DNA of 38,045 nucleotides from a virus (Duplodnaviria > Heunggongvirae > Uroviricota > Caudoviricetes): IMG/VR virus record IMGVR_UViG_2778261204_000006, positions 1 to 38,045 of that record. The stretch is one strand, 5' to 3'. Of this stretch, positions 3,600-12,588 are shown one piece after another. Position 1 is the stretch's first letter. Each line of letters opens with the position of its first letter. The notes under the pieces are model-generated. The model had not been told where the DNA came from. It ran no database searches and worked only from the letters and a program-made list of their open reading frames with translations. A program made the translations under genes and the position numbers.

Positions 3600-3872
3600 T
3601 CAGTGCTTCCGGTCGACGGTGATGTTCAGGTTGCCTTCTGCAGTGGTTTCCATCCGGTACGGCACCTCATGCTTTGCCGTGTGGGTGAGTGTGTTCACCA
3701 GTACCTGCAGGGCAGCCTCCTTTCCGTTGGTCGCCACAATGGCCTGAGCGGCCATGCTGATTAGCGCTGTCAGGACGTGCTTCACATCGGTGAGGTCGCG
3801 GCATTCACACTCGTTGACATAGTGTTCAACAAGGGTTCGGGTGCGCTGTCGTGCTTCCTGTGGGGTAATCAT
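3600..3872 (-). CDS. hypothetical early protein
   Basis: 90 aa; tightly packed with flanking genes. Confidence 0.45.
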   Translation of the reverse strand: MITPQEARQRTRTLVEHYVNECECRDLTDVKHVLTALISMAAQAIVATNGKEAALQVLVNTLTHTAKHEVPYRMETTAEGNLNITVDRKH

Positions 3873-4063
3873 TGCGCGTCCTCCCTGTCAGGGCGGGAGA
3901 ATTCCATGACGGGCACGTCTGCCGAAAAATGCTGGCTGCAGTACGGGCAGACCAGGGTGACGCGTACCGCAGGTATGTGGTACTTACCGGACATCACGGC
4001 GATGGCGCTGTGAAAACGCAGGGCTGTTATATCCCTCTCGCACTGAATACATTTAAATATCAT
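3869..4063 (-). CDS. small zinc-ribbon-like protein
   Basis: 64 aa with CxxC...CPYC cysteine pairs; GAGGAG RBS. Confidence 0.45.
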   Translation of the reverse strand: MIFKCIQCERDITALRFHSAIAVMSGKYHIPAVRVTLVCPYCSQHFSADVPVMEFSRPDREDAQ

Positions 4064-4160
4064 GATTTAATTCTCCTCTGTTTCCGGCGTGCAGAAGCCC
4101 ACGGCGCTGACGCCGGAATAAAAAAGAAAATGTTTTTATTAAATAATTAACGTGGTGTGT

Positions 4161-4691
4161 TTACTGCACATCCTGCTCAAAAGGAATTATTGAAAAATCC
4201 TCAATATCACTTTTTATGGTAATACCGGGAATATTTTTCACGGCGTCTTTTTCATTCAGGATGGCGTCTTTATTTATTTCCTCTTTTACACGAATAAATC
4301 GCTCAAGCCCCAGACGTCTCAGTAGCTCAATAACATTATCCGCCCCGCGAATGCTGACTGACGGTGGACGGTTTCTCCACTGTACCTCGCCGGTGGTGAG
4401 GTTAGCGAACTTCACCTTCCCGTTGCCGGTCAGTTCATCACGGTGTGCCTCACACCATGTCTGGATACCGGACTGCAGTTCTGACATGCGTTTTTTCAGG
4501 CTCTCGGTGAGCGGGGCATAACGTGCGGTGATATCGCCAATGGCGTCATTCATTTCTGTTTCAGCCCTGACCAGTTCACGTTGTGCGTCACCGAGCAGTC
4601 TGATTCCCTCAATGACCTCTTCGCGTGTTCCTGGTACCCAGAGTGCCGCTGCGGACTTGATACGTTTTGCCCCTTTTGTACTTTTTGCCAT
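4161..4691 (-). CDS. Gam-like host-nuclease inhibitor protein
   Basis: About 176 aa from ATG 4691; size and position downstream of the B-like ATPase match Mu Gam; family assignment from recalled similarity. Confidence 0.6.
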   Translation of the reverse strand: MAKSTKGAKRIKSAAALWVPGTREEVIEGIRLLGDAQRELVRAETEMNDAIGDITARYAPLTESLKKRMSELQSGIQTWCEAHRDELTGNGKVKFANLTTGEVQWRNRPPSVSIRGADNVIELLRRLGLERFIRVKEEINKDAILNEKDAVKNIPGITIKSDIEDFSIIPFEQDVQ

Positions 4692-4716: not shown

Positions 4717-4986
4717 TTACCACAAAGATTCCGGCCACACGACGCGACAGCCGTGCAGTTCGAAAACGCCCTGACGGAAATGTCCCCTGTGGTCATGACC
4801 GGTATACAGATAACTGGCTTTCCCCTGTTCAAGCATGCGCATGCAATGCGCACTCCGGGAAACGCGGATGACAGGTTTATTGCCCCTGATGGTGATGCTT
4901 TGTACATCCGTGTTCGTCGCCATAAGCGCCATAATGGCTGACTGCACTTTGCTGATTTGCTGGTTGATACCTGTGATGGATTTCAT
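4717..4986 (-). CDS. hypothetical early protein
   Basis: 89 aa; ATG 2 nt after the stop of the B-like gene. Confidence 0.45.
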   Translation of the reverse strand: MKSITGINQQISKVQSAIMALMATNTDVQSITIRGNKPVIRVSRSAHCMRMLEQGKASYLYTGHDHRGHFRQGVFELHGCRVVWPESLW

Positions 4987-4988
4987 TC

Positions 4989-6155
4989 TTAAACCCCTTT
5001 GACAACGTCAGCGTTGACCTGTGGAACACCGATTTCAGCAGCCAGATTCATGGCGGCTATCACCAGGTTACTGACGGCCAGCGGATACAGCAGGCTGACC
5101 CTGTTTTTACGGTGACTTCCCGGATTGCTCAGGCGGGCACGTATGGCATCCACTGCGCCGGCGTCCATAATGTCCGTCAGTTGTTTACCGGCCCGTTGCA
5201 GTTTGAACGTCAGAAACTCTTCAAGGTTATTGTCCAGAGGCAGAAGTTCGACCACCTCACAGCGCTGAACGACTTCACGGACTTCCATATTGCGTTCAGA
5301 CAGTTTTGTCGCCAGTTCCGGCTGGCCAATCAGCACGATGGACAGCAGTTTTTTGAAACCGGACTCCAGCTCAAAAAAGCGTTTGAGGTGTTTCAGTGTC
5401 GGAATAGGCAGACTGTGGGCCTCCTCAATCACCAGAACGTGGCTGAACCCCGCCTGGCTGCTGTCTTTCAGGACGCGATGCAACTGGCGAAAGCGGGCGT
5501 CCTGACTGCGTCTGATGCTTTCCAGTGGTGCGATGGTACTGATAATGGCTTCGGCAATCGCTGCTGCCTTCAGGGTTTTCCCTTTCACATCGTTGTCTTC
5601 CATGGCGATGACGTATGGCTCGATAACAATCACCGGCGCATTCTCGCGGTTGATACGTTCAGTCAGGTCGCGGCGCAGCGTGGATTTACCCGCACCGGAC
5701 TCACCGATGACGGCCATAAACCCGCCATGACGGGCTGTCTGGTACAGCGCCTCACGCACGTAGCGAATGTCCGGGGTGGTGAACACATCATCAGAACCCT
5801 GCATGGCTTCGTCGGCGAACGGGTCACGGAAAAGACCAAACGCTTTTTTGGTTGCTGGAAATAACACCTGTTTTTTGAGTAACATATTCTCTTCCTCACT
5901 GAGGCTCGTTTTATCTGTGGTACCCGCTGTACGGGGCGTGGCCGCGCCCTGTACAGCATCAAAACTCTTCGTTGTATCAATCCCCTGACTTTCCAGCCAG
6001 GACGCAAGACGCCGGCGCACTTCTCCGGGGCGGGTGCGGGGCCACGCGTTATGATTCACAATCTGGGCCAGCGTGGCCTCAGAAACATCGACAGCTCTCG
6101 CCACCACCGCCTGTGGAATACGGGCCTCTTTCAGTTGCTGCTTCAGTACCAGCAT
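4989..6155 (-). CDS. transposition ATPase (Mu B-like AAA+ target-DNA activator)
   Basis: Walker A GESGAGKST in translation; N-terminal HTH-like region; ATG 6155 with GGAGGG RBS 10 nt after the transposase stop. Confidence 0.75.
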   Translation of the reverse strand: MLVLKQQLKEARIPQAVVARAVDVSEATLAQIVNHNAWPRTRPGEVRRRLASWLESQGIDTTKSFDAVQGAATPRTAGTTDKTSLSEEENMLLKKQVLFPATKKAFGLFRDPFADEAMQGSDDVFTTPDIRYVREALYQTARHGGFMAVIGESGAGKSTLRRDLTERINRENAPVIVIEPYVIAMEDNDVKGKTLKAAAIAEAIISTIAPLESIRRSQDARFRQLHRVLKDSSQAGFSHVLVIEEAHSLPIPTLKHLKRFFELESGFKKLLSIVLIGQPELATKLSERNMEVREVVQRCEVVELLPLDNNLEEFLTFKLQRAGKQLTDIMDAGAVDAIRARLSNPGSHRKNRVSLLYPLAVSNLVIAAMNLAAEIGVPQVNADVVKGV

Positions 6156-6165
6156 GTTTCCCTCC

Positions 6166-7935
6166 TTAGTTGCCGTTAACAATGCTGATAACGCTGCTGC
6201 GGGCCGGCGTGGTCAGCGTGGCCATGACTTCATCCAGTGCGGCTTCCGGTACGCCGTCCGGATACTGTGCCGTTAACTGGCGGTAATGTTCCGGCGTCCA
6301 GGTAAGGCCGTTGGCGCTGAACTTCCCGCGCAGGGCTTTCGCGGCCTCCACATGAGTCATGGGACGCTGTTCAGTGCGCGGTCCGCGTACGTCAGAGGCC
6401 TGACCTCGCTTCGGTATACAGGCCGGAAGTGTGGCGTCATCAATATGTTTATACGGGTCAAGCCGCCCGCCGAACGGCAGCGCCTTCGCCTTGCGTGCGG
6501 CAGCTGCATCTGCGGCGTTGTCTGTACCGGTGACCAGCGCTTCGGTTTCTTTTGCCGCCATCTGCGCCGGGGTTTCCGGCAGGGCTTTGTAACTTTCGCC
6601 AAATACCGCCGCGCCTTCAGCAAAGCCAAACTCGTTCTTTCTGACCTCTTCGACCAGGAAGAACGTCTCGTGGCCGTCCTCACCGGTCAGAACCACCTGT
6701 GCCACATCGCTGCGCCACGGGTTACGGGTAATCATCAGTTTTTCACCGACCAGTACGCCCGGTACCGTTGATACGTCAAATTCAGTGCCCCGGAACGAGA
6801 CACGAAGTTTTGGCGTGACTTTGCGGAGTTCTGGTGCTGCCACAGCCAGTTCACGGCATACCTCAACGGAAGGCGCTTTTTTCAGCTGCTCAGCAGTAAT
6901 CTTCAGCCAGATATCCGTGCGGGTTTTACCGTGGCGGCTGTGAACAGCTGTTGCGTTAAAGTGGCTGCGCCATTTCGCGGCCAGCGCGTTGAGTTCTTCC
7001 AGACTGTGAACCGGCCGGAACTTCAGACCCGGCTCCAGCTTGCGTTCGATAATGTCTCGCGCCTTTTCCACCTGTCCGGTGGCGCGGGCGTTATGCGGCT
7101 TGTGCGCTATCAGGTCGATGCCCAGTGAGCGGCACATGTTTTTCGTCATACCCGCGGTGTTTGCCGAGCCGGGGTCGAGATAGAGTATTTTCGGCACGCC
7201 GTGCAGCACGTCTGCGCCGCCACGCTCCTGCATGGCATTGATAAGCACAGAACACAGGTTCTCACCGGATTCCGCACCCGTCACATACTCAACGTAAATC
7301 CAGCCGCTGGCATGGTCGGTAATCTCGTAACTCCACACGCGGTCACTGGCGATACGGGCAAGGTTAGCGGGCTTGTTCTTGTAGAATTTCGCGCTGTCCA
7401 TCACCTGCAGCCCTTTATGTCCATTGCTCAGGTAGTAAAGCGTGCAGAGTGAGGCGTCAATCTGCCAGACATGATTGGGATGCAGACTGGCCACTTCGGT
7501 ATGTGGTGCAGGGGCATCCAGTTGTTCCGGGTGCAGGCCATAGTTACGCAGGGCGCGACTGATGGCATCTTCGGACAACGGGAAAAACTCACCGGTGGTT
7601 TCATCTGTTCTGCCTGCGGAGATAAAGCCGTTAGCCCGCAGGGTTTCCACTGCATCCGCGATGGAATAGAGACGCTTACCGTTCTTGCGGGTGGCCTCAC
7701 GTAGTGTGGCAGATATCAGCGCGGCTTCGTCGCGGGTCAGGGCGCTGCGCCCGGCATCGGCGCGTTTTTTGCGTTTATCAGTCACAGATACCTCCTTCAG
7801 CCTGCGCAGCAGAGTGGCGCGGGACATGCCAAGTTCAGCACAGGCAGCGTCGTATATTGCACCGCGTTTACCATGCCCCGCGTCACGTGCCGCGCGGGCT
7901 GTTTCAACCAGTTTTTCAGTCAGTGCCGGGGTCAT
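6166..7935 (-). CDS. DDE transposase (Mu A-like)
   Basis: 589 aa; acidic catalytic-motif candidates (VWQIDAS, YLDPGSANT); paired with a downstream ATPase as in Mu A-B. Confidence 0.85.
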   Translation of the reverse strand: MTPALTEKLVETARAARDAGHGKRGAIYDAACAELGMSRATLLRRLKEVSVTDKRKKRADAGRSALTRDEAALISATLREATRKNGKRLYSIADAVETLRANGFISAGRTDETTGEFFPLSEDAISRALRNYGLHPEQLDAPAPHTEVASLHPNHVWQIDASLCTLYYLSNGHKGLQVMDSAKFYKNKPANLARIASDRVWSYEITDHASGWIYVEYVTGAESGENLCSVLINAMQERGGADVLHGVPKILYLDPGSANTAGMTKNMCRSLGIDLIAHKPHNARATGQVEKARDIIERKLEPGLKFRPVHSLEELNALAAKWRSHFNATAVHSRHGKTRTDIWLKITAEQLKKAPSVEVCRELAVAAPELRKVTPKLRVSFRGTEFDVSTVPGVLVGEKLMITRNPWRSDVAQVVLTGEDGHETFFLVEEVRKNEFGFAEGAAVFGESYKALPETPAQMAAKETEALVTGTDNAADAAAARKAKALPFGGRLDPYKHIDDATLPACIPKRGQASDVRGPRTEQRPMTHVEAAKALRGKFSANGLTWTPEHYRQLTAQYPDGVPEAALDEVMATLTTPARSSVISIVNGN

Positions 7936-7950
7936 AGCTTGTCTTCCCTG

Positions 7951-8268
7951 TTATCCGATTCTGGCGGCAATTTTTCTGGCGAGGTCGCACAGTGTTTCGC
8001 CATCGCAGGTTTTCACCACGGTATTTACCGGTTGCGGTGCAACTACCGGGCGCAATGCTGACTGATTCTGCAGACGTCTTATCTGCTGCATCAGCATCAC
8101 CTCCATCGCCAGTACAAACGGGTGCGCCTCCTGTGCGGGTACGCAGATTTCACCGGAAGGGGTCACCACGCGGAAACCCTGCACCATTTCCGGCACCAGA
8201 TTACACAGTGCGTGCCCCAGTGCTTCCGGGCTGTCCATCAGGATATTTTGTGTGTTATTCGTGTTCAT
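7951..8268 (-). CDS. hypothetical early protein
   Basis: 105 aa; TAATG overlap with the upstream gene. Confidence 0.45.
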   Translation of the reverse strand: MNTNNTQNILMDSPEALGHALCNLVPEMVQGFRVVTPSGEICVPAQEAHPFVLAMEVMLMQQIRRLQNQSALRPVVAPQPVNTVVKTCDGETLCDLARKIAARIG

Positions 8269-9185
8269 TAACGTATGCCCTCCGGTCGGTTGATTTCAGG
8301 CTCCGGTTCGGTCAGCCAGGCGGGGACATCGTTACCCGATGGTGCGGCATCAAGGTCAAACGTCTCACGCAATGCATGAACACTGCGTTCAATCTGGCAG
8401 ACCAGACCGGCCATGAAATCTCTGGGGGTATCAATCATGTGTTCAGCACAATATGCGCACAGCGTCTCAAACGCGCCGGACAGCCGGACGGCGATGGCAG
8501 ATTCCGCCTCAACCGCTAATGCCGTCACTTCCGCCCGCAATTTTTTCAGTTCTTCGTCTGGCGGCGGAGGTTGCAGGCGCGATTTCTTCTCCAGTTTTGT
8601 GGCCAGTTCGTTGATTTTTTCGTCCTTTCCGGCAAGCACCTGTTGCTGAGCTGCGTTGGTTTCGCGCGCTTCACGCAGGGCCTGGCGAAGTTCGCGGCTG
8701 GTCATGCGATCAATATCGTCGAGAGTCATTCCAGCAACCGTGCCGCCGTCAGCCAGTTCGGCAAGATCTTCGTCATCTTCCGTCATTAACTCAAAAAGTT
8801 TGGTTTTCCCCAAATGTGCCAGCGCTGGCACATTTGGTTTCAGCGTCGGGGATAAGTATTTTGTCGATGCCTGCATCATTCGCACAGATGTCCGGTACGC
8901 CAGCCCCAACTCACCTTCAAGAATCTTTATAAACTCCCCATGCGGCTCATTTTCCTTAAGAAGGATCAATCGTTTACCGGCTTCCAGCATTGCTTCCGCG
9001 CTCTGCGCCATATAAAAGCGTGCCTCATGAACAACACGATCGCGCTCATAGGGCAGGCCATCACCGAACAGTTGCATGATCTCCGTGCTGTGTTGTGTCA
9101 TGGCGTTCAGACTGACATTGAGATCATCCGACAGGGGGACCTCGGCGTTCAGTTCAGTGTTAACCAGTGATTTAGTGCGTCCCAT
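8268..9185 (-). CDS. hypothetical early protein (acidic and coiled-coil regions)
   Basis: 305 aa; strong AAGGAG RBS 6 nt before ATG 9185. Confidence 0.5.
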   Translation of the reverse strand: MGRTKSLVNTELNAEVPLSDDLNVSLNAMTQHSTEIMQLFGDGLPYERDRVVHEARFYMAQSAEAMLEAGKRLILLKENEPHGEFIKILEGELGLAYRTSVRMMQASTKYLSPTLKPNVPALAHLGKTKLFELMTEDDEDLAELADGGTVAGMTLDDIDRMTSRELRQALREARETNAAQQQVLAGKDEKINELATKLEKKSRLQPPPPDEELKKLRAEVTALAVEAESAIAVRLSGAFETLCAYCAEHMIDTPRDFMAGLVCQIERSVHALRETFDLDAAPSGNDVPAWLTEPEPEINRPEGIR

Positions 9186-9195
9186 TGATTACTCC

Positions 9196-9504
9196 TTACA
9201 AACGACTACCTGAAATAACTCGCTGGTTGATTTCGTTAATACGATCCTGTGCACGTGCCATCTCGTTACTGTGGGCCATAGCGATCTGCAGTAACTGGAT
9301 GCCCGGCGCGAAACGCCCGTTTTCCAGTTTCAGGGCCAACCCTTCTTCAATGAGGGTGTTGAGTGCCCGGTTGATGTTTGCCGGTGACTCGTGCAGTGCT
9401 GCCGCCAGTTCACCGTTGGAAATACCGTTCAGGGCATGACCACGCAGCGCTTTCAGTACCCGGAGGATGCGACTGCCGGAGCTTGAAACATTCGTCTTAC
9501 TCAT
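9196..9504 (-). CDS. winged-helix DNA-binding regulator (IclR-N-terminal-like fold)
   Basis: ORF 9196..9510; translation SRILRVLKALRGHALNGISNGELAAALHESPANINRALNTLIEEGLAL resembles wHTH domains. Confidence 0.45.
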   Translation of the reverse strand: MSKTNVSSSGSRILRVLKALRGHALNGISNGELAAALHESPANINRALNTLIEEGLALKLENGRFAPGIQLLQIAMAHSNEMARAQDRINEINQRVISGSRL

Positions 9505-9556
9505 CTGCATACCTATTTTTCAATATGTGATAATCTTTTTCGTATGCTGTATCTTT

Positions 9557-9745
9557 TTAAGCGGCGTCAGTGATGGTTTTTAATCCCAGCTTTACAGCGA
9601 TTTCATGGGCTTTGCCATAGTTCGCTTTTACCTGGCCATTCAGTACGCGGTAAACCTCCGCTCTGGTGTAGTTGTTCTGTTTTGCCCACTGGGTAAAAGT
9701 GATCCCATTGCGACGGAAATGAGCTTTGACCTGGTCTGCAGTCAT
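9557..9745 (-). CDS. small DNA-binding protein (Ner/Cro-like early regulator)
   Basis: 62 aa; first gene of the leftward early operon; strong AAGGAG RBS; divergent from the repressor-like gene. Confidence 0.55.
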   Translation of the reverse strand: MTADQVKAHFRRNGITFTQWAKQNNYTRAEVYRVLNGQVKANYGKAHEIAVKLGLKTITDAA

Positions 9746-9797
9746 TGTTGTCTCCTTGTTTGGTGCAATGATGTTTGCGTTATGTGTGATAGATTAT

Positions 9798-9815
9798 TGT
9801 CTAAAAATTTAGACA
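9798..9815. promoter_or_regulatory. palindromic operator candidate TGTCTAAA-AA-TTTAGACA in the divergent regulatory region
   Basis: 8-bp perfect inverted arms with 2-bp spacer, 12 nt upstream of the repressor start. Confidence 0.4.
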
Positions 9816-9826
9816 GAGCAAGTTTT

Positions 9827-10180
9827 ATGTCCATTAATTTAGAAAAAATACATGCGCGTCTCATTTCAGAATTAAAACGTGTTGGTCCTTTGGCGGTATC
9901 TAAGTCCACTGGTATCTCGCGGGCGACGATTTATAACTGGATGGAAAAAGGAAATATCCCGCTAGATAAACTGGTAGTTTTAGGAGCAGCAGGAGTAGAT
10001 GTTGCCTTCATTCTTACGGGTATGAGCACAGATGGTGAGGTGGAAATTCAGAACCGGATATCCCCCGAAAAACAAAAATTAATAGATACTTTTGACGACA
10101 TGACACCAGAGCAACAACGCTCATTTCTTGAGATTGGGCGATTCTATACTCAGCCAAAACCAGGAAAAATCGCAGGCTGA
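9827..10180 (+). CDS. HTH (XRE/Cro-C1 type) repressor-like protein
   Basis: 117 aa from ATG 9827; HTH segment KSTGISRATIYNWMEKGNIP; divergent from the early operon as c is in Mu. Confidence 0.6.
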   Translation: MSINLEKIHARLISELKRVGPLAVSKSTGISRATIYNWMEKGNIPLDKLVVLGAAGVDVAFILTGMSTDGEVEIQNRISPEKQKLIDTFDDMTPEQQRSFLEIGRFYTQPKPGKIAG

Positions 10181-10266
10181 TTCTGACCTGGACACAAAGG
10201 ACAGGTGGTTGATCTGGACGCTTTCAGAAAGCGCCGTCAGTAGCATGGCAGGAATGGGCTGATTTA

Positions 10267-10297
10267 CCGGAAAGCATTGTGCTTTCCGGTTTTGTTT
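10267..10297 (+). terminator. rho-independent terminator downstream of the repressor-like gene
   Basis: CCGGAAAGC / GCTTTCCGG 9-bp stem, 5-nt loop, followed by TTTTGTTT. Confidence 0.5.
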
Positions 10298-11061
10298 CAG
10301 AAGTTGCAGATTACCAGTTCACGGCGCGGCGTGGGTTTCCCCGCCAGACTGTAGTTGATATTCACCGTCTGTATGTTCAGTTCAGTGAACACCCGACGCA
10401 TCTGCGGAATGTCGTTCACCGAGATAATCATCTTTCCTCTGATGCACCGGGCCAGTTCTGCGAGTAGTGTGTAGTTCTCTTCAGGAAAATCCACACCATA
10501 GCCTTCCGTCCCCAGATAGGGCGGATCACAGTAGAACAACGTGTGCGGACGGTCATAACGCTTAATGCACTGGTGCCAGTCCATGTGCTCTATCACCGTT
10601 CTGGAAAGCCGCAGGTGTGCCGCTGACAGTTCTTCTTCAATACGTAGCAGGTTGAAGCGTGGCGGAGATGTGGTGGATGTGCCGAAGCTGTGCTCTGCCA
10701 CCTTGCCACCAAATGCCTGCTTCTGGAGGTAGTAGAACCGTGCCGCACGCTGGATATCCGTCAGTGTTTCTTCCGGGGTGATCTGCAGCCATTTGTAGAT
10801 CTGCCGGCTAACCAGCGCCCATTTGAACTGGCGGATAAATTCTTCCAGGTGATGTTTTACCACCCGGTACAGATTCACCAGTTCACCATTGATATCGTTA
10901 ATGACTTCGAGCTTGCCGGGAGTCTTGAGAAAATAGAGCGCAGCTGCGCCGCAGAACGGCTCCACATAACATTCATGCGCAGGAAACAGCGGCAGGATGT
11001 GTTTTGCCAGGCGGCGTTTGCCACCAATCCATGGAACGATGGGTAATGTCTGCGTTTTCAT
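10297..11061 (-). CDS. Dam-like N6-adenine DNA methyltransferase
   Basis: 254 aa; DPPY catalytic motif (LFYCDPPYLG) and SAM-binding FxGxG-like motif (EPFCGAAA). Confidence 0.85.
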   Translation of the reverse strand: MKTQTLPIVPWIGGKRRLAKHILPLFPAHECYVEPFCGAAALYFLKTPGKLEVINDINGELVNLYRVVKHHLEEFIRQFKWALVSRQIYKWLQITPEETLTDIQRAARFYYLQKQAFGGKVAEHSFGTSTTSPPRFNLLRIEEELSAAHLRLSRTVIEHMDWHQCIKRYDRPHTLFYCDPPYLGTEGYGVDFPEENYTLLAELARCIRGKMIISVNDIPQMRRVFTELNIQTVNINYSLAGKPTPRRELVICNF

Positions 11062-11466: not shown

Positions 11467-11869
11467 GATGCACTCCTTAAATGATGATTTTTATGTACTC
11501 ACCGGCAAAATATTCTGCCGATTACTGAACACGCATCCGGCACCTCAGGTTTTGATTTATTCTGGTTTTTTCGATATCCCGGACCAGGTTGATCACGACC
11601 AGAAAAAGTGCCGGTATTTTATTGATACGCTGATATGGCTTCGGGATAACAGCTATATTCGTTACTCTCAGTTGCTGGCTGTGGGAGCGGCTGATGTCGT
11701 CCTCACGGAAAAAACGCTCTGTCTGCTCAATGCCATGCCGACCTTTCTGCAGCCCCGGCCCGTACCATTTAAAGAGTCGCTTCTGGATGCAGTAAAAACC
11801 GGTGAAAATGCAGTCATCGCTGAATGCGTATCCCGGATTATGCGTTACGTGTTTAATGAACGTAAGTGA
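11465..11869 (+). CDS. hypothetical protein (134 aa)
   Basis: Exactly fills the gap between minus-strand genes; 3' end overlaps the P-loop gene by 25 nt; looks AT-richer than flanks by eye. Confidence 0.45.
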   Translation: MMHSLNDDFYVLTGKIFCRLLNTHPAPQVLIYSGFFDIPDQVDHDQKKCRYFIDTLIWLRDNSYIRYSQLLAVGAADVVLTEKTLCLLNAMPTFLQPRPVPFKESLLDAVKTGENAVIAECVSRIMRYVFNERK

Positions 11870-12588
11870 GGTTTATCCGCTGTCTGCATAATCCCGATAG
11901 CCAGTGCGAGGGGAAGCAATTCCGGGGAAACTCTTTCAAACAGCGATTCCCATTCTCCTCTCGCCATCACTCTGTCCAGCCCTCCCTCCAGCTGCATTTC
12001 AGCAATCTTCCTGATTTCCCGGAACAACGCCGCTTTGATCTCTTCGTGCTCAGCTTTATTTTCCGGTGTCAGAATGTATTCGTCGAAGAACCGGGGAGGC
12101 TGGTTAACGGGGATTGTGTTCACCGGGATGTGTTCCTGCTTCCCGTACTTCGGGGCCGAAAAACATTCTGTTGGCTGACCGGTGAGTTTACGTAACTCCT
12201 TCATGAGCAGCTCCTGATCGTAAACTGTCATCAGTGCCGCAATGGTGGCATGCAGTGCATCGGGCAGTATCCAGGGTTGCCGGCCCGTGGGGCATATAAC
12301 ATCCAGCAGCTCATTCGTCCGACAGATACGCTCCTCGCCGTATGACAACAGGCCCTGTCCCGTGTATTCCTCCAGCCTGATCACTGTGCCACCCCGTGGC
12401 TTCTGCCAGGTCGTCAGATCATCGCCATTCATACGGCGCTCATTCTCCACGTCAGCAGCATCGACAATGACGCTGTTTCCGAGTTCCTGTTTCACCACTT
12501 CCTCTATCCGCGCCAGTACGTAACTTTTACCGCTGCCCACAGGACCGGACACGGTGACAGTGATGACCGGATTCAGTGTGTGCGTCAT
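11845..12588 (-). CDS. P-loop NTPase/kinase-like protein of unknown function
   Basis: 247 aa; N-terminal Walker A VSGPVGSGKSY; GAGGAG RBS; divergent from the lysis cassette. Confidence 0.55.
   Translation of the reverse strand: MTHTLNPVITVTVSGPVGSGKSYVLARIEEVVKQELGNSVIVDAADVENERRMNGDDLTTWQKPRGGTVIRLEEYTGQGLLSYGEERICRTNELLDVICPTGRQPWILPDALHATIAALMTVYDQELLMKELRKLTGQPTECFSAPKYGKQEHIPVNTIPVNQPPRFFDEYILTPENKAEHEEIKAALFREIRKIAEMQLEGGLDRVMARGEWESLFERVSPELLPLALAIGIMQTADKPHLRSLNT

What the first reader, a model, noticed from the sequence alone, without database searches (positions are those of the whole stretch)
7951..9510. Three uncharacterised early genes between the Ner-like regulator and the transposase
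A 104-aa winged-helix protein, a 305-aa protein with strong RBS and a 105-aa protein are translationally coupled at the head of the early operon. Proteins expressed first after infection are frequent anti-defence or host-takeover factors.
Basis: inference. Interest (0 to 1): 0.4.

Follow-up and report, generated by a model that had tools for sequence, protein, structure and literature searches.

The report
Conserved partner genes of a phage transposase
The three small early genes are real. Two of them are DNA-binding-type proteins that always sit directly in front of the transposase genes in this family of Mu-like phages, so they look like untested helpers or regulators of phage transposition rather than anti-defence add-ons.

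Summary
The window is a BcepMu-like transposable prophage of E. coli. The three ORFs lie exactly where reported and are tightly packed: 104 aa at 9196-9510, 305 aa at 8268-9185, 105 aa at 7951-8268, all on the minus strand.

The 104-aa IclR/MarR-type winged-helix protein and the 305-aa DUF3102 protein form a fixed cassette, wHTH > DUF3102 > TnpA > TnpB. It was found in essentially every related locus examined, from Enterobacterales to Treponema genome bins and a cyanophage.

The DUF3102 protein has two modules. The N-terminal helix-turn-helix-like head also occurs in non-transposable elements and is exchanged between phages. The C-terminal helical module follows the transposase type.

The 105-aa gene is optional, present in about 59% of E. 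coli copies. Its 55-residue core belongs to a family of at least 569 protein clusters that sits either before the wHTH gene or between DUF3102 and TnpA.

None of the three has a solved relative, an informative fold match, or a function in the papers searched.

Best reading: cassette-linked DNA-binding accessory or regulatory factors of BcepMu/B3-type transposition. Mechanism is inferred, not shown. The anti-defence reading is disfavoured for two genes and open for the third.

The parts
9196..9510 (-). 104-aa winged-helix (IclR/MarR-type HTH) protein, the first member of the cassette. Equivalent to BcepMu gp12, B3 ORF14, phiE255 gp42, PM105_14 and Fc02_14.
   Evidence: Pfam HTH_IclR E 3e-6 and HTH_24 E 4e-5, both above cut-off; phrog_1368 E 9e-45. 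dN/dS 0.02. Adjacent upstream of DUF3102 in 76/76 viral loci and 65/70 genome loci. Present in 73/73 loci found by searching with TnpA. No solved sequence relative; best is a MarR protein at E 0.24.
8268..9185 (-). 305-aa DUF3102 protein, equivalent to BcepMu gp10, B3 ORF13 and phiE255 gp41. It has an N-terminal module (about aa 40-180: HTH-like motif 'GEF..ILE..LGL..RT..RMMQAS' plus a SAP-like motif at about 152-176), a long coiled region, and a C-terminal helical hairpin module (about aa 205-290).
7951..8268 (-). 105-aa small protein (phrog_5446). Conserved core at aa 14-71 (helix, beta-hairpin, helix), a disordered linker at 73-88, and a lineage-specific C-terminal helix at 93-104. It is an optional member of the cassette.
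6166..7935 (-). TnpA, a 589-aa DDE (rve) transposase of the BcepMu/B3 type. It is the invariant downstream neighbour of the cassette.
   Evidence: PF00665 E 1e-8. phrog_310 E 2e-146, aligned from profile position 130, so it lacks the N-terminal about 130 profile positions. 99% identical to the PhiKM transposase.
4989..6155 (-). TnpB, the MuB-like AAA ATPase (transposition protein).
   Evidence: ORF 4989-6182. The equivalent PhiKM gene lies directly after the transposase. Homologues carry AAA_22 in related loci.
9557..9745 (-). Ner-like HTH protein (BcepMu gp16 family), the first gene of the early operon.
   Evidence: TIGR04111 E 1e-27; phrog_925. A promoter-like site at 9833-9806(-) lies upstream.

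Best explanation
The three genes belong with TnpA and TnpB to one conserved transposition/early-control module of BcepMu/B3-type transposable phages.

- The 104-aa protein is a small winged-helix DNA binder.
- The 305-aa protein is a two-part adaptor. Its exchangeable N-terminal DUF3102 head, which looks like a helix-turn-helix plus a SAP-like motif, most likely binds DNA. Its C-terminal helical hairpin, found here only alongside this type of TnpA/TnpB, most likely contacts a cassette partner (TnpA, TnpB or the wHTH protein).
- The 105-aa protein is an optional small modulator from a family that always sits next to the wHTH-DUF3102 pair.

Proposed working: soon after induction the pair binds phage DNA, at operator/enhancer-like sites or at the phage ends, and helps assemble or time the transposition-replication complex. 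This would be a job that Mu covers with host factors and the enhancer-binding domain of MuA.

Shown here: gene structure, conservation, synteny, selection, domain modularity, and the absence of any known homologue. Inferred: DNA binding, the partner contact, and the role in transposition.
For: 1. Fixed synteny.
- wHTH is adjacent upstream of DUF3102 in 76/76 viral and 65/70 genome loci. Four more genome loci have it slightly further up.
- TnpA lies downstream in 74/74 and 69/69 loci.
- Starting independently from TnpA, 73/73 evaluable loci carry both genes.
- Hosts span Enterobacterales, Burkholderiales, Neisseriales, Pseudomonas, Xanthomonadales, Treponema genome bins, Stenotrophomonas phage phiSHP3 and Microcystis phage Mae-JY22.
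- By contrast, the ner-to-wHTH distance varies from -44 to 2423 nt.

2. Domain behaviour.
- Fc02_13 sits beside the same TnpA type (57% identity) and shares only aa 166-291 with the window protein.
- KS10 gp15 sits beside a barely related transposase and shares only aa 13-217.
- A Bacillus thuringiensis phage-plasmid protein, with no transposase annotated within the 6.5 kb read, shares only aa 51-177.
- tblastn with aa 167-305 hits 28 phage records, all of them BcepMu/B3-type transposable phages.

3. DNA-binding features.
- HTH_IclR and HTH_24 hits for the 104-aa protein.
- An HTH-like conserved motif in DUF3102.
- Weak SAP hits in 5 of 78 family members.

4. Purifying selection: dN/dS 0.02 and 0.12-0.19.

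5. The phage already carries a Mor/C-type activator at the far end of the operon. A transcription-cascade role is therefore not vacant.

6. The small-protein family stays next to the pair while changing sides.
Against: - No experiment and no homologue of known function supports any step.
- The claim that the C-terminal module tracks the transposase type rests on one example of each contrast, plus a phage database of limited breadth.
- The DUF3102 head also occurs in non-transposable elements, at the head of early operons or near a Mor-type gene. That fits a general early regulator equally well.
- Fixed gene order may reflect operon inheritance rather than joint function.
- Among near-identical E. 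coli phages the N-terminal head has been swapped independently of TnpA (dS 1.8 against 0.07). So it does not co-evolve tightly with the transposase.
- Loss of the MuA enhancer-binding domain is common to most transposable phages (PMC8705779). It therefore does not single out this family as needing a substitute.
Confidence: 0.45

Rival explanations
1. The wHTH and DUF3102 proteins are transcription regulators of the early operon or of the lysis-lysogeny switch. They might autoregulate Pe, counter the repressor, or activate later genes. On this view they sit before TnpA only because they are inherited as part of the same operon.
For: - The wHTH belongs to the IclR/MarR-type regulator folds, and databases annotate it as a transcriptional regulator.
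- DUF3102-head proteins sit directly after a Cro-like gene in a B. thuringiensis phage-plasmid and near a Mor-type gene in an Enterobacter phage-plasmid, with no transposase annotated nearby.
- The N-terminal head is swapped between near-identical phages, as the immunity region is.
Against: - The phage has its own repressor, Ner-like protein and Mor/C-type activator.
- The pair stays glued to TnpA/TnpB while its distance to the Ner/operator region varies by more than 2 kb.
- The C-terminal module follows the transposase type, not the immunity type.
Confidence: 0.27
2. This is the first reader's idea: the genes are anti-defence, superinfection-exclusion or host-takeover factors made first after induction. 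It is most plausible for the 105-aa gene, which occupies a variable slot directly upstream of TnpA.
For: - The 105-aa gene is optional: 414 of 706 E. coli copies, and absent from KP12.
- The DUF3102/TnpA junction holds unrelated small ORFs in other lineages: 99 aa in L073 and L080, 73 aa in L076.
- BcepMu has an unrelated 70-aa gene between wHTH and DUF3102.
- In B3-like Fc02 the gene after ner gives superinfection exclusion (PMC9936078).
- From my own knowledge, not checked here: in D3112-type phages the gene just before the transposase (Tip) blocks type IV pili.
- dN/dS of the 105-aa gene is the highest of the set, 0.31-0.43.
Against: - wHTH and DUF3102 are universally conserved, strongly constrained and DNA-binding-like, which is unlike fast-turnover counter-defence cargo.
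- The core of the 105-aa protein belongs to a widespread family that keeps its place beside the wHTH-DUF3102 pair across Beta- and Gammaproteobacteria. That suggests a cassette-linked job rather than a host-specific weapon.
- PADLOC gave no meaningful hit. That library holds defence systems, not anti-defence proteins, so this says little.
Confidence: 0.15
3. The DUF3102 protein is a ParB/KfrA-like DNA organiser. On this view an HTH head plus a coiled-coil tail would bridge or condense phage DNA, for example pairing the two phage ends or shielding the prophage domain, without any direct contact with the transposase.
For: - Long helices at 163-204, 209-248 and 255-275.
- The architecture resembles the plasmid protein KfrA (HTH plus coiled coil, about 300 aa). 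This comparison is from my own knowledge.
Against: - No ParB, KorB or KfrA Pfam hit appears in any of the 78 family members.
- There is no ParA-type partner and no CTP-binding ParB N-terminal domain.
Confidence: 0.08

Closest known systems
BcepMu gp12-gp10 and B3 ORF14-ORF13, also phiE255 gp42-gp41, PM105_14-13 and Fc02_14-13
   Same: Direct homologues in the same position, immediately upstream of transposase A and B in the early operon. phiE255 gp41 is 58% identical and B3 ORF13 48% identical to the 305-aa protein.
   Different: The enterobacterial version is minimal. It has no CII-like gene and no other ORFs between Ner and the wHTH gene, and it carries the extra 105-aa gene between DUF3102 and TnpA. 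BcepMu has an unrelated 70-aa gene between the pair. Fc02-type phages carry a different N-terminal head. No homologue has an assigned function (PMC9936078; annotations).
Phage Mu early operon (ner, A, B) and the MuA enhancer-binding domain I-alpha
   Same: Same operon logic: a divergent repressor, then Ner, then the transposase and its ATPase. In Mu, a winged-helix domain that binds an internal enhancer assists transpososome assembly (established knowledge of Mu).
   Different: Mu has nothing between ner and A, and its enhancer binder is part of MuA. Here TnpA aligns to the transposase PHROG only from profile position 130, and two separate proteins precede it. The wHTH is IclR/MarR-type, not the MuA/repressor type. 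Functional equivalence is speculation.
ParB/SopB/Spo0J DNA-binding domains and the plasmid protein KfrA
   Different: No sequence or Pfam relationship, no Foldseek support, no ParB N-terminal CTPase domain, and no ParA partner.
Early accessory genes of Pseudomonas transposable phages: Fc02/Ps56 gene 10, and D3112 Tip
   Same: Small genes between ner and the transposase, expressed from the early promoter. Some act on the host or exclude other phages (PMC9936078; the Tip case is from my own knowledge).
   Different: Those genes are lineage-specific cargo with no homology to the three genes here. Two of the three genes here are universal in the family.

Membership tests
Pfam DUF3102 (PF11300) | Match to the family profile above the gathering score | tested here: met
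   28.4 bits against a cut-off of 24.4, E 2e-6, residues 65-172. 73 of 78 aligned relatives also match at E<=1.
IclR/MarR-type winged-helix DNA-binding proteins | Match to HTH_IclR, HTH_24 or MarR profiles above the gathering score | tested here: met
   HTH_IclR 27.3 bits (cut-off 22) and HTH_24 23.7 bits (cut-off 21.9). MarR is below its cut-off. The protein is only 104 aa, so it has the HTH domain alone.
IclR-family transcription regulators (full family) | C-terminal effector-binding IclR domain following the HTH | tested here: not met
   The protein ends at residue 104 and no IclR C-terminal domain was hit. It shares the HTH type only and should not be filed as an IclR-family regulator.
BcepMu/B3-type transposition cassette (wHTH > DUF3102 > rve TnpA > AAA TnpB) | The four genes are co-oriented and adjacent in this order | tested here: met
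   Window coordinates. The same order is seen in 76/76, 74/74 and 73/73 related viral loci, and in 65-69 of about 70 genome loci.
ParB/SopB/KorB DNA-binding proteins | Sequence-profile match to ParB-type domains (ParBc, HTH_ParB, KorB) | tested here: not met
   No such Pfam hit in the window protein or in 78 relatives at E<=1. No PDB sequence match.
ParB/SopB/KorB DNA-binding proteins | Fold of the central HTH DNA-binding domain | tested here: inconclusive
Known anti-phage defence components (PADLOC) | Significant match to a defence-system protein model | tested here: not met
   Only a wHTH-type match to CARF3--CARF_TM (E 2e-5, covering the HTH region) and a weak coiled-coil match to JetC (E 1e-3). 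The 105-aa protein has none.
Known anti-defence proteins (anti-CRISPR, anti-restriction and similar) | Homology to a characterised anti-defence protein, or a demonstrated inhibitory activity | not testable with these tools
   No anti-defence library was available. Pfam, NCBIfam and PHROGs gave no such annotation.
Small-protein family of the 105-aa gene (phrog_5446 plus the distant 65-70-aa relatives found here) | Conserved core motif L.YAL.K.VP.M..GF.I.T.YG.I.I...DA..F, with location next to the wHTH-DUF3102 pair | tested here: met
   Alignment A5; the motif above is my summary of it. Invariant columns in the window protein are M28, G31, F32, T36, G39, F51 and L59. Profile search finds 569 clusters. 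Positions are given.

The most novel reading that the evidence does not exclude
The wHTH protein and the two-module DUF3102 protein, sometimes with the small helix-hairpin-helix protein, may be previously unrecognised obligatory subunits of the BcepMu/B3-type transposition machine. In this reading the exchangeable DNA-binding head reads a phage-specific site, and the conserved C-terminal hairpin docks onto TnpA or TnpB. This would supply in trans the enhancer or architectural function that Mu builds into MuA and borrows from host proteins. It would define a new class of accessory factor for DDE transposases, present in about 12% of complete E. coli genomes.
Probability: 0.25. Interest if true: 0.65.

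Novelty: new member of a known kind. Interest (0 to 1): 0.4.

Why it matters
BcepMu/B3-type transposable prophages are common. The transposase is found in 637 of 5426 complete E. coli genomes, and related elements occur in Burkholderia, Pseudomonas, Ralstonia, Neisseria and others. Yet the papers searched assign roles only to transposase A and B, GemA and Mor in the early operon (PMC9936078).

Two DNA-binding-type proteins are inseparable from the transposase genes, and one of them has a module that follows the transposase type. That gives a concrete, testable lead to accessory factors of replicative transposition outside the Mu paradigm. It would also give Pfam DUF3102 and two function-less PHROG families a first functional context.

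If instead they are plain early regulators, the result is ordinary annotation.

The practical lesson for genome scans is that position at the head of an early operon is not enough to nominate an anti-defence gene. Presence/absence variation should be checked first.

Tried and rejected
- Pfam, NCBIfam, PHROGs and PADLOC scans gave family names only, with no function.
- PDB sequence searches with the proteins or their profiles found nothing meaningful.
- Fold searches:
  - Foldseek against PDB was empty.
- A search for informative gene fusions in the long DUF3102 relatives (434-545 aa) found no extra Pfam domain.
- The idea that BcepMu gp11, the small gene between wHTH and DUF3102, is a relative of the 105-aa protein was rejected. 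It gave no HMM match.
- The idea that the JBD25/Fc02 group lacks the DUF3102 partner was raised because tblastn missed it (31 phage records against 69 with TnpA). It was rejected: Fc02 and phiSHP3 have a gene of the same size in the same place, which matches the HMM (E 3e-24 and 4e-43).
- Literature searches for DUF3102, BcepMu or B3 early genes, and E. coli Bcepmuvirus found no functional study.
- The first alignment was too diverse for the locus finder, and a first HMM script timed out.

Full report
**What the window is**

The region belongs to a BcepMu-like (Bcepmuvirus) transposable prophage of E. coli.
- The closest phage record is Escherichia phage PhiKM, at 87% nucleotide identity over 7800-9800.
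- The same 2-kb stretch matches 634 of 5426 complete E. coli genomes. The transposase gene alone matches 637 genomes at 706 places.

The early operon runs on the minus strand:
- a promoter-like site at 9833-9806;
- a Ner-like gene at 9557-9745 (BcepMu_gp16 family);
- the three genes of the finding;
- TnpA at 6166-7935 (rve, phrog_310);
- a MuB-like ATPase at 4989-6155;
- then Gam, GemA and a Mor/C-type activator further down (PhiKM annotation).

The repressor is divergent, probably 9827-10180(+), and is followed by a strong terminator.

**Check of the observation**

The three ORFs are exactly as described.
- The wHTH stop is followed by 10 nt before the ATG of the 305-aa gene, with AAGGAG overlapping the stop.
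- The 305-aa and 105-aa genes overlap as TAATG.
- 15 nt separate the 105-aa stop from the TnpA start.
- No convincing minus-strand terminator interrupts the series.

Against PhiKM-like alleles, dN/dS is 0.02 for the wHTH gene, 0.12-0.19 for DUF3102 and 0.31-0.43 for the 105-aa gene. The last value rests on only 8-12 differences.

**The 104-aa protein**

It matches HTH_IclR and HTH_24 above the Pfam cut-offs and phrog_1368 at E 9e-45. It consists of the winged-helix domain plus a C-terminal helix only. There is no IclR effector domain, so it is of IclR HTH type but is not an IclR-family regulator. It has no solved sequence relative.

**The 305-aa protein**

Family and fold:
- It matches PF11300 (DUF3102) and phrog_1748.
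- An exhaustive search finds 1573 representative clusters with E<=1e-3.
- With a 78-sequence alignment, AlphaFold gives a confident all-helical model (pLDDT 92.5). It shows a helical head to about residue 160, then three long helices at 163-204, 209-248 and 255-275.
- The most conserved stretch reads GDGLPY.R...EARFYMAQSAEAMLEAGKRLI.LKENEPHGEF..I.E..LGL..RTA.RMMQAS. This ends in a typical helix-turn-helix pattern.
- A SAP-like motif follows at about 152-176. Five of the 78 members give weak SAP hits.
- Foldseek finds nothing, and there is no PDB sequence relative.
- DNA binding is therefore plausible but not shown.

The protein has two modules:
- Fc02_13 is the equivalent gene of a B3-like phage whose TnpA is 57% identical to the window's. 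It shares only residues 166-291 with the window protein.
- KS10 gp15 precedes a barely related transposase. It shares only residues 13-217.
- A B. thuringiensis phage-plasmid protein sits right after a Cro-like gene. It shares only residues 51-177.
- PHROGs likewise split into N-only and C-only families.
- tblastn with residues 167-305 hits 28 phage records, all of them BcepMu/B3-type transposable phages.

The head occurs on its own in phage-plasmids and in a streptococcal satellite.

Among near-identical E. coli prophages the head region has been replaced by recombination. Synonymous divergence is 1.8 in codons 41-180, against 0.07 in TnpA. The amino-acid changes are concentrated around the putative recognition helix.

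**Synteny**

Loci found by searching with DUF3102:
- Viral contigs: the wHTH gene is adjacent upstream in 76/76, and TnpA lies downstream in 74/74. Eleven of these carry a 150-700-nt insert.
- One genome per species: 65/70 have the wHTH gene within 150 nt, four more have it further upstream, and 69/69 have TnpA downstream.

Loci found independently by searching with TnpA: 73/73 carry both genes.

Hosts include Enterobacterales, Burkholderiales, Neisseriales, Pseudomonas, Cellvibrionales, Xanthomonadales, Treponema genome bins, a Stenotrophomonas phage and a Microcystis phage.

The distance from Ner to the wHTH gene varies from overlap to 2.4 kb. The fixed unit is therefore wHTH > DUF3102 > TnpA > TnpB. 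D3112 lacks it. Mu has nothing between ner and A (established knowledge of Mu; the Mu genome was not examined here).

**The 105-aa protein**

- A single-sequence search finds only 11 clusters, all from E. coli or Salmonella.
- The gene is absent from KP12 and from about 41% of E. coli copies: 414 places against 706 for TnpA.
- Other lineages hold unrelated small ORFs in the same slot.
- Its core, residues 14-71, is modelled confidently as helix, beta-hairpin, helix. This core has distant relatives.
- A profile of ten sequences finds 569 clusters, mostly 65-70-aa proteins of Betaproteobacteria with no Pfam family.
- These relatives lie either immediately upstream of, and overlapping, the wHTH gene (Ralstonia, Oryzomicrobium and others), or between DUF3102 and TnpA (E. 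coli, Xenorhabdus and others).
- Two database proteins read as fusions of this core with a sequence that looks to me like a winged helix. They may be gene-calling artefacts.
- One relative lies in a P4-like element.
- No fold or sequence match gives a function.

**Interpretation**

Two of the three genes are core, constrained, DNA-binding-type partners of the transposase genes. The third is an optional member of a small family that stays beside them.

The most economical reading is a cassette-linked accessory or control function in transposition-replication. The DUF3102 C-terminal module would be the cassette-specific interface, and the head an exchangeable DNA reader.

The main rival is plain early transcription control. 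It is supported by the occurrence of the head in non-transposable early operons.

The anti-defence reading is disfavoured for the pair. It remains possible for the 105-aa gene, given that variable early genes in related phages do exclude other phages (PMC9936078).

The papers searched assign no function to these genes. One paper notes that the MuA enhancer-binding domain is missing from most transposable phages (PMC8705779). That tempers the idea that these proteins replace it.

**Verdict**

- This is a new member of a known, uncharacterised gene set. The analysis adds a fixed four-gene cassette, a two-module DUF3102 protein, and a floating small-protein family.
- Interest is moderate (0.4).

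Noticed in passing
window 8700-9100 (codons about 41-180 of the DUF3102 gene): This is a recombinant mosaic patch. Against PhiKM-like prophages, nucleotide identity drops to 60-82% while the flanks are 93-100% identical. Synonymous divergence is 1.8 here against 0.07 in TnpA. Other relatives show patches at different positions, so the gene is a recombination hot spot carrying old alleles.
   Followed up: partly
L073 5933-6232, L080 5936-6235, L076 5867-6088; L257 (BcepMu) 5450-5662: The junctions of the cassette accept unrelated small genes in other lineages. A 99-aa and a 73-aa ORF lie between DUF3102 and TnpA. BcepMu gp11 (70 aa) lies between wHTH and DUF3102. None resembles the 105-aa protein.
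   Followed up: partly
window 9800-10300: The repressor ORF listed as 9605-10180(+) probably starts at 9827 (MSINLEK...). A Pe-like promoter on the minus strand (9833-9806) overlaps that start. A strong terminator-like hairpin at 10266-10290(+) follows the repressor gene.
   Followed up: no
window 10297-11061 (-) and 11845-12588 (-): A 254-aa ORF at 10297-11061 lies beside the immunity region; I read it as a Dam-type DNA adenine methylase because PhiKM annotates one at the matching place. A 247-aa ORF at 11845-12588 has a P-loop-like N-terminus (GPVGSGKS) and is annotated only as hypothetical in PhiKM.
   Followed up: no
L164 (Enterobacter hormaechei IncFIB plasmid) 3603-4559(-) and 4899-5630(+); L165 (B. 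thuringiensis p46701) 4962-5873: DUF3102-head proteins occur in what look like phage-plasmids, with no transposase annotated within the stretches read. The Enterobacter element has two divergent copies near a Mor-family gene, RecA and an exonuclease. The Bacillus element has one directly after a Cro-like gene, near an AimR arbitrium receptor.
   Followed up: partly
P0358 (148 aa) and P0320 (168 aa), database proteins: These are apparent fusions of the 105-aa-type core with a sequence that looks to me like a winged helix, in either order. They could be real fusions that point to a partnership, or gene-calling artefacts. Their contexts were not examined.
   Followed up: no
L251/L252 5001-5492 (Burkholderia gladioli-type element): A 163-aa relative of the small-protein core carries the precomputed Pfam label PF27050 (Phage_P22_Y8K6). 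It lies in an integrase plus P4-like primase-helicase element, so the core also exists outside transposable phages.
   Followed up: no
Phage database records KP12 (OM835952) and others: Klebsiella phage KP12 clone KP12_2 is filed under Vequintavirinae, but this clone carries the BcepMu-type early cassette. It is likely a co-assembled prophage fragment. Several Burkholderia phage records annotate the transposase as 'integrase', and one Pseudomonas record annotates it as 'replication protein DnaD'.
   Followed up: no
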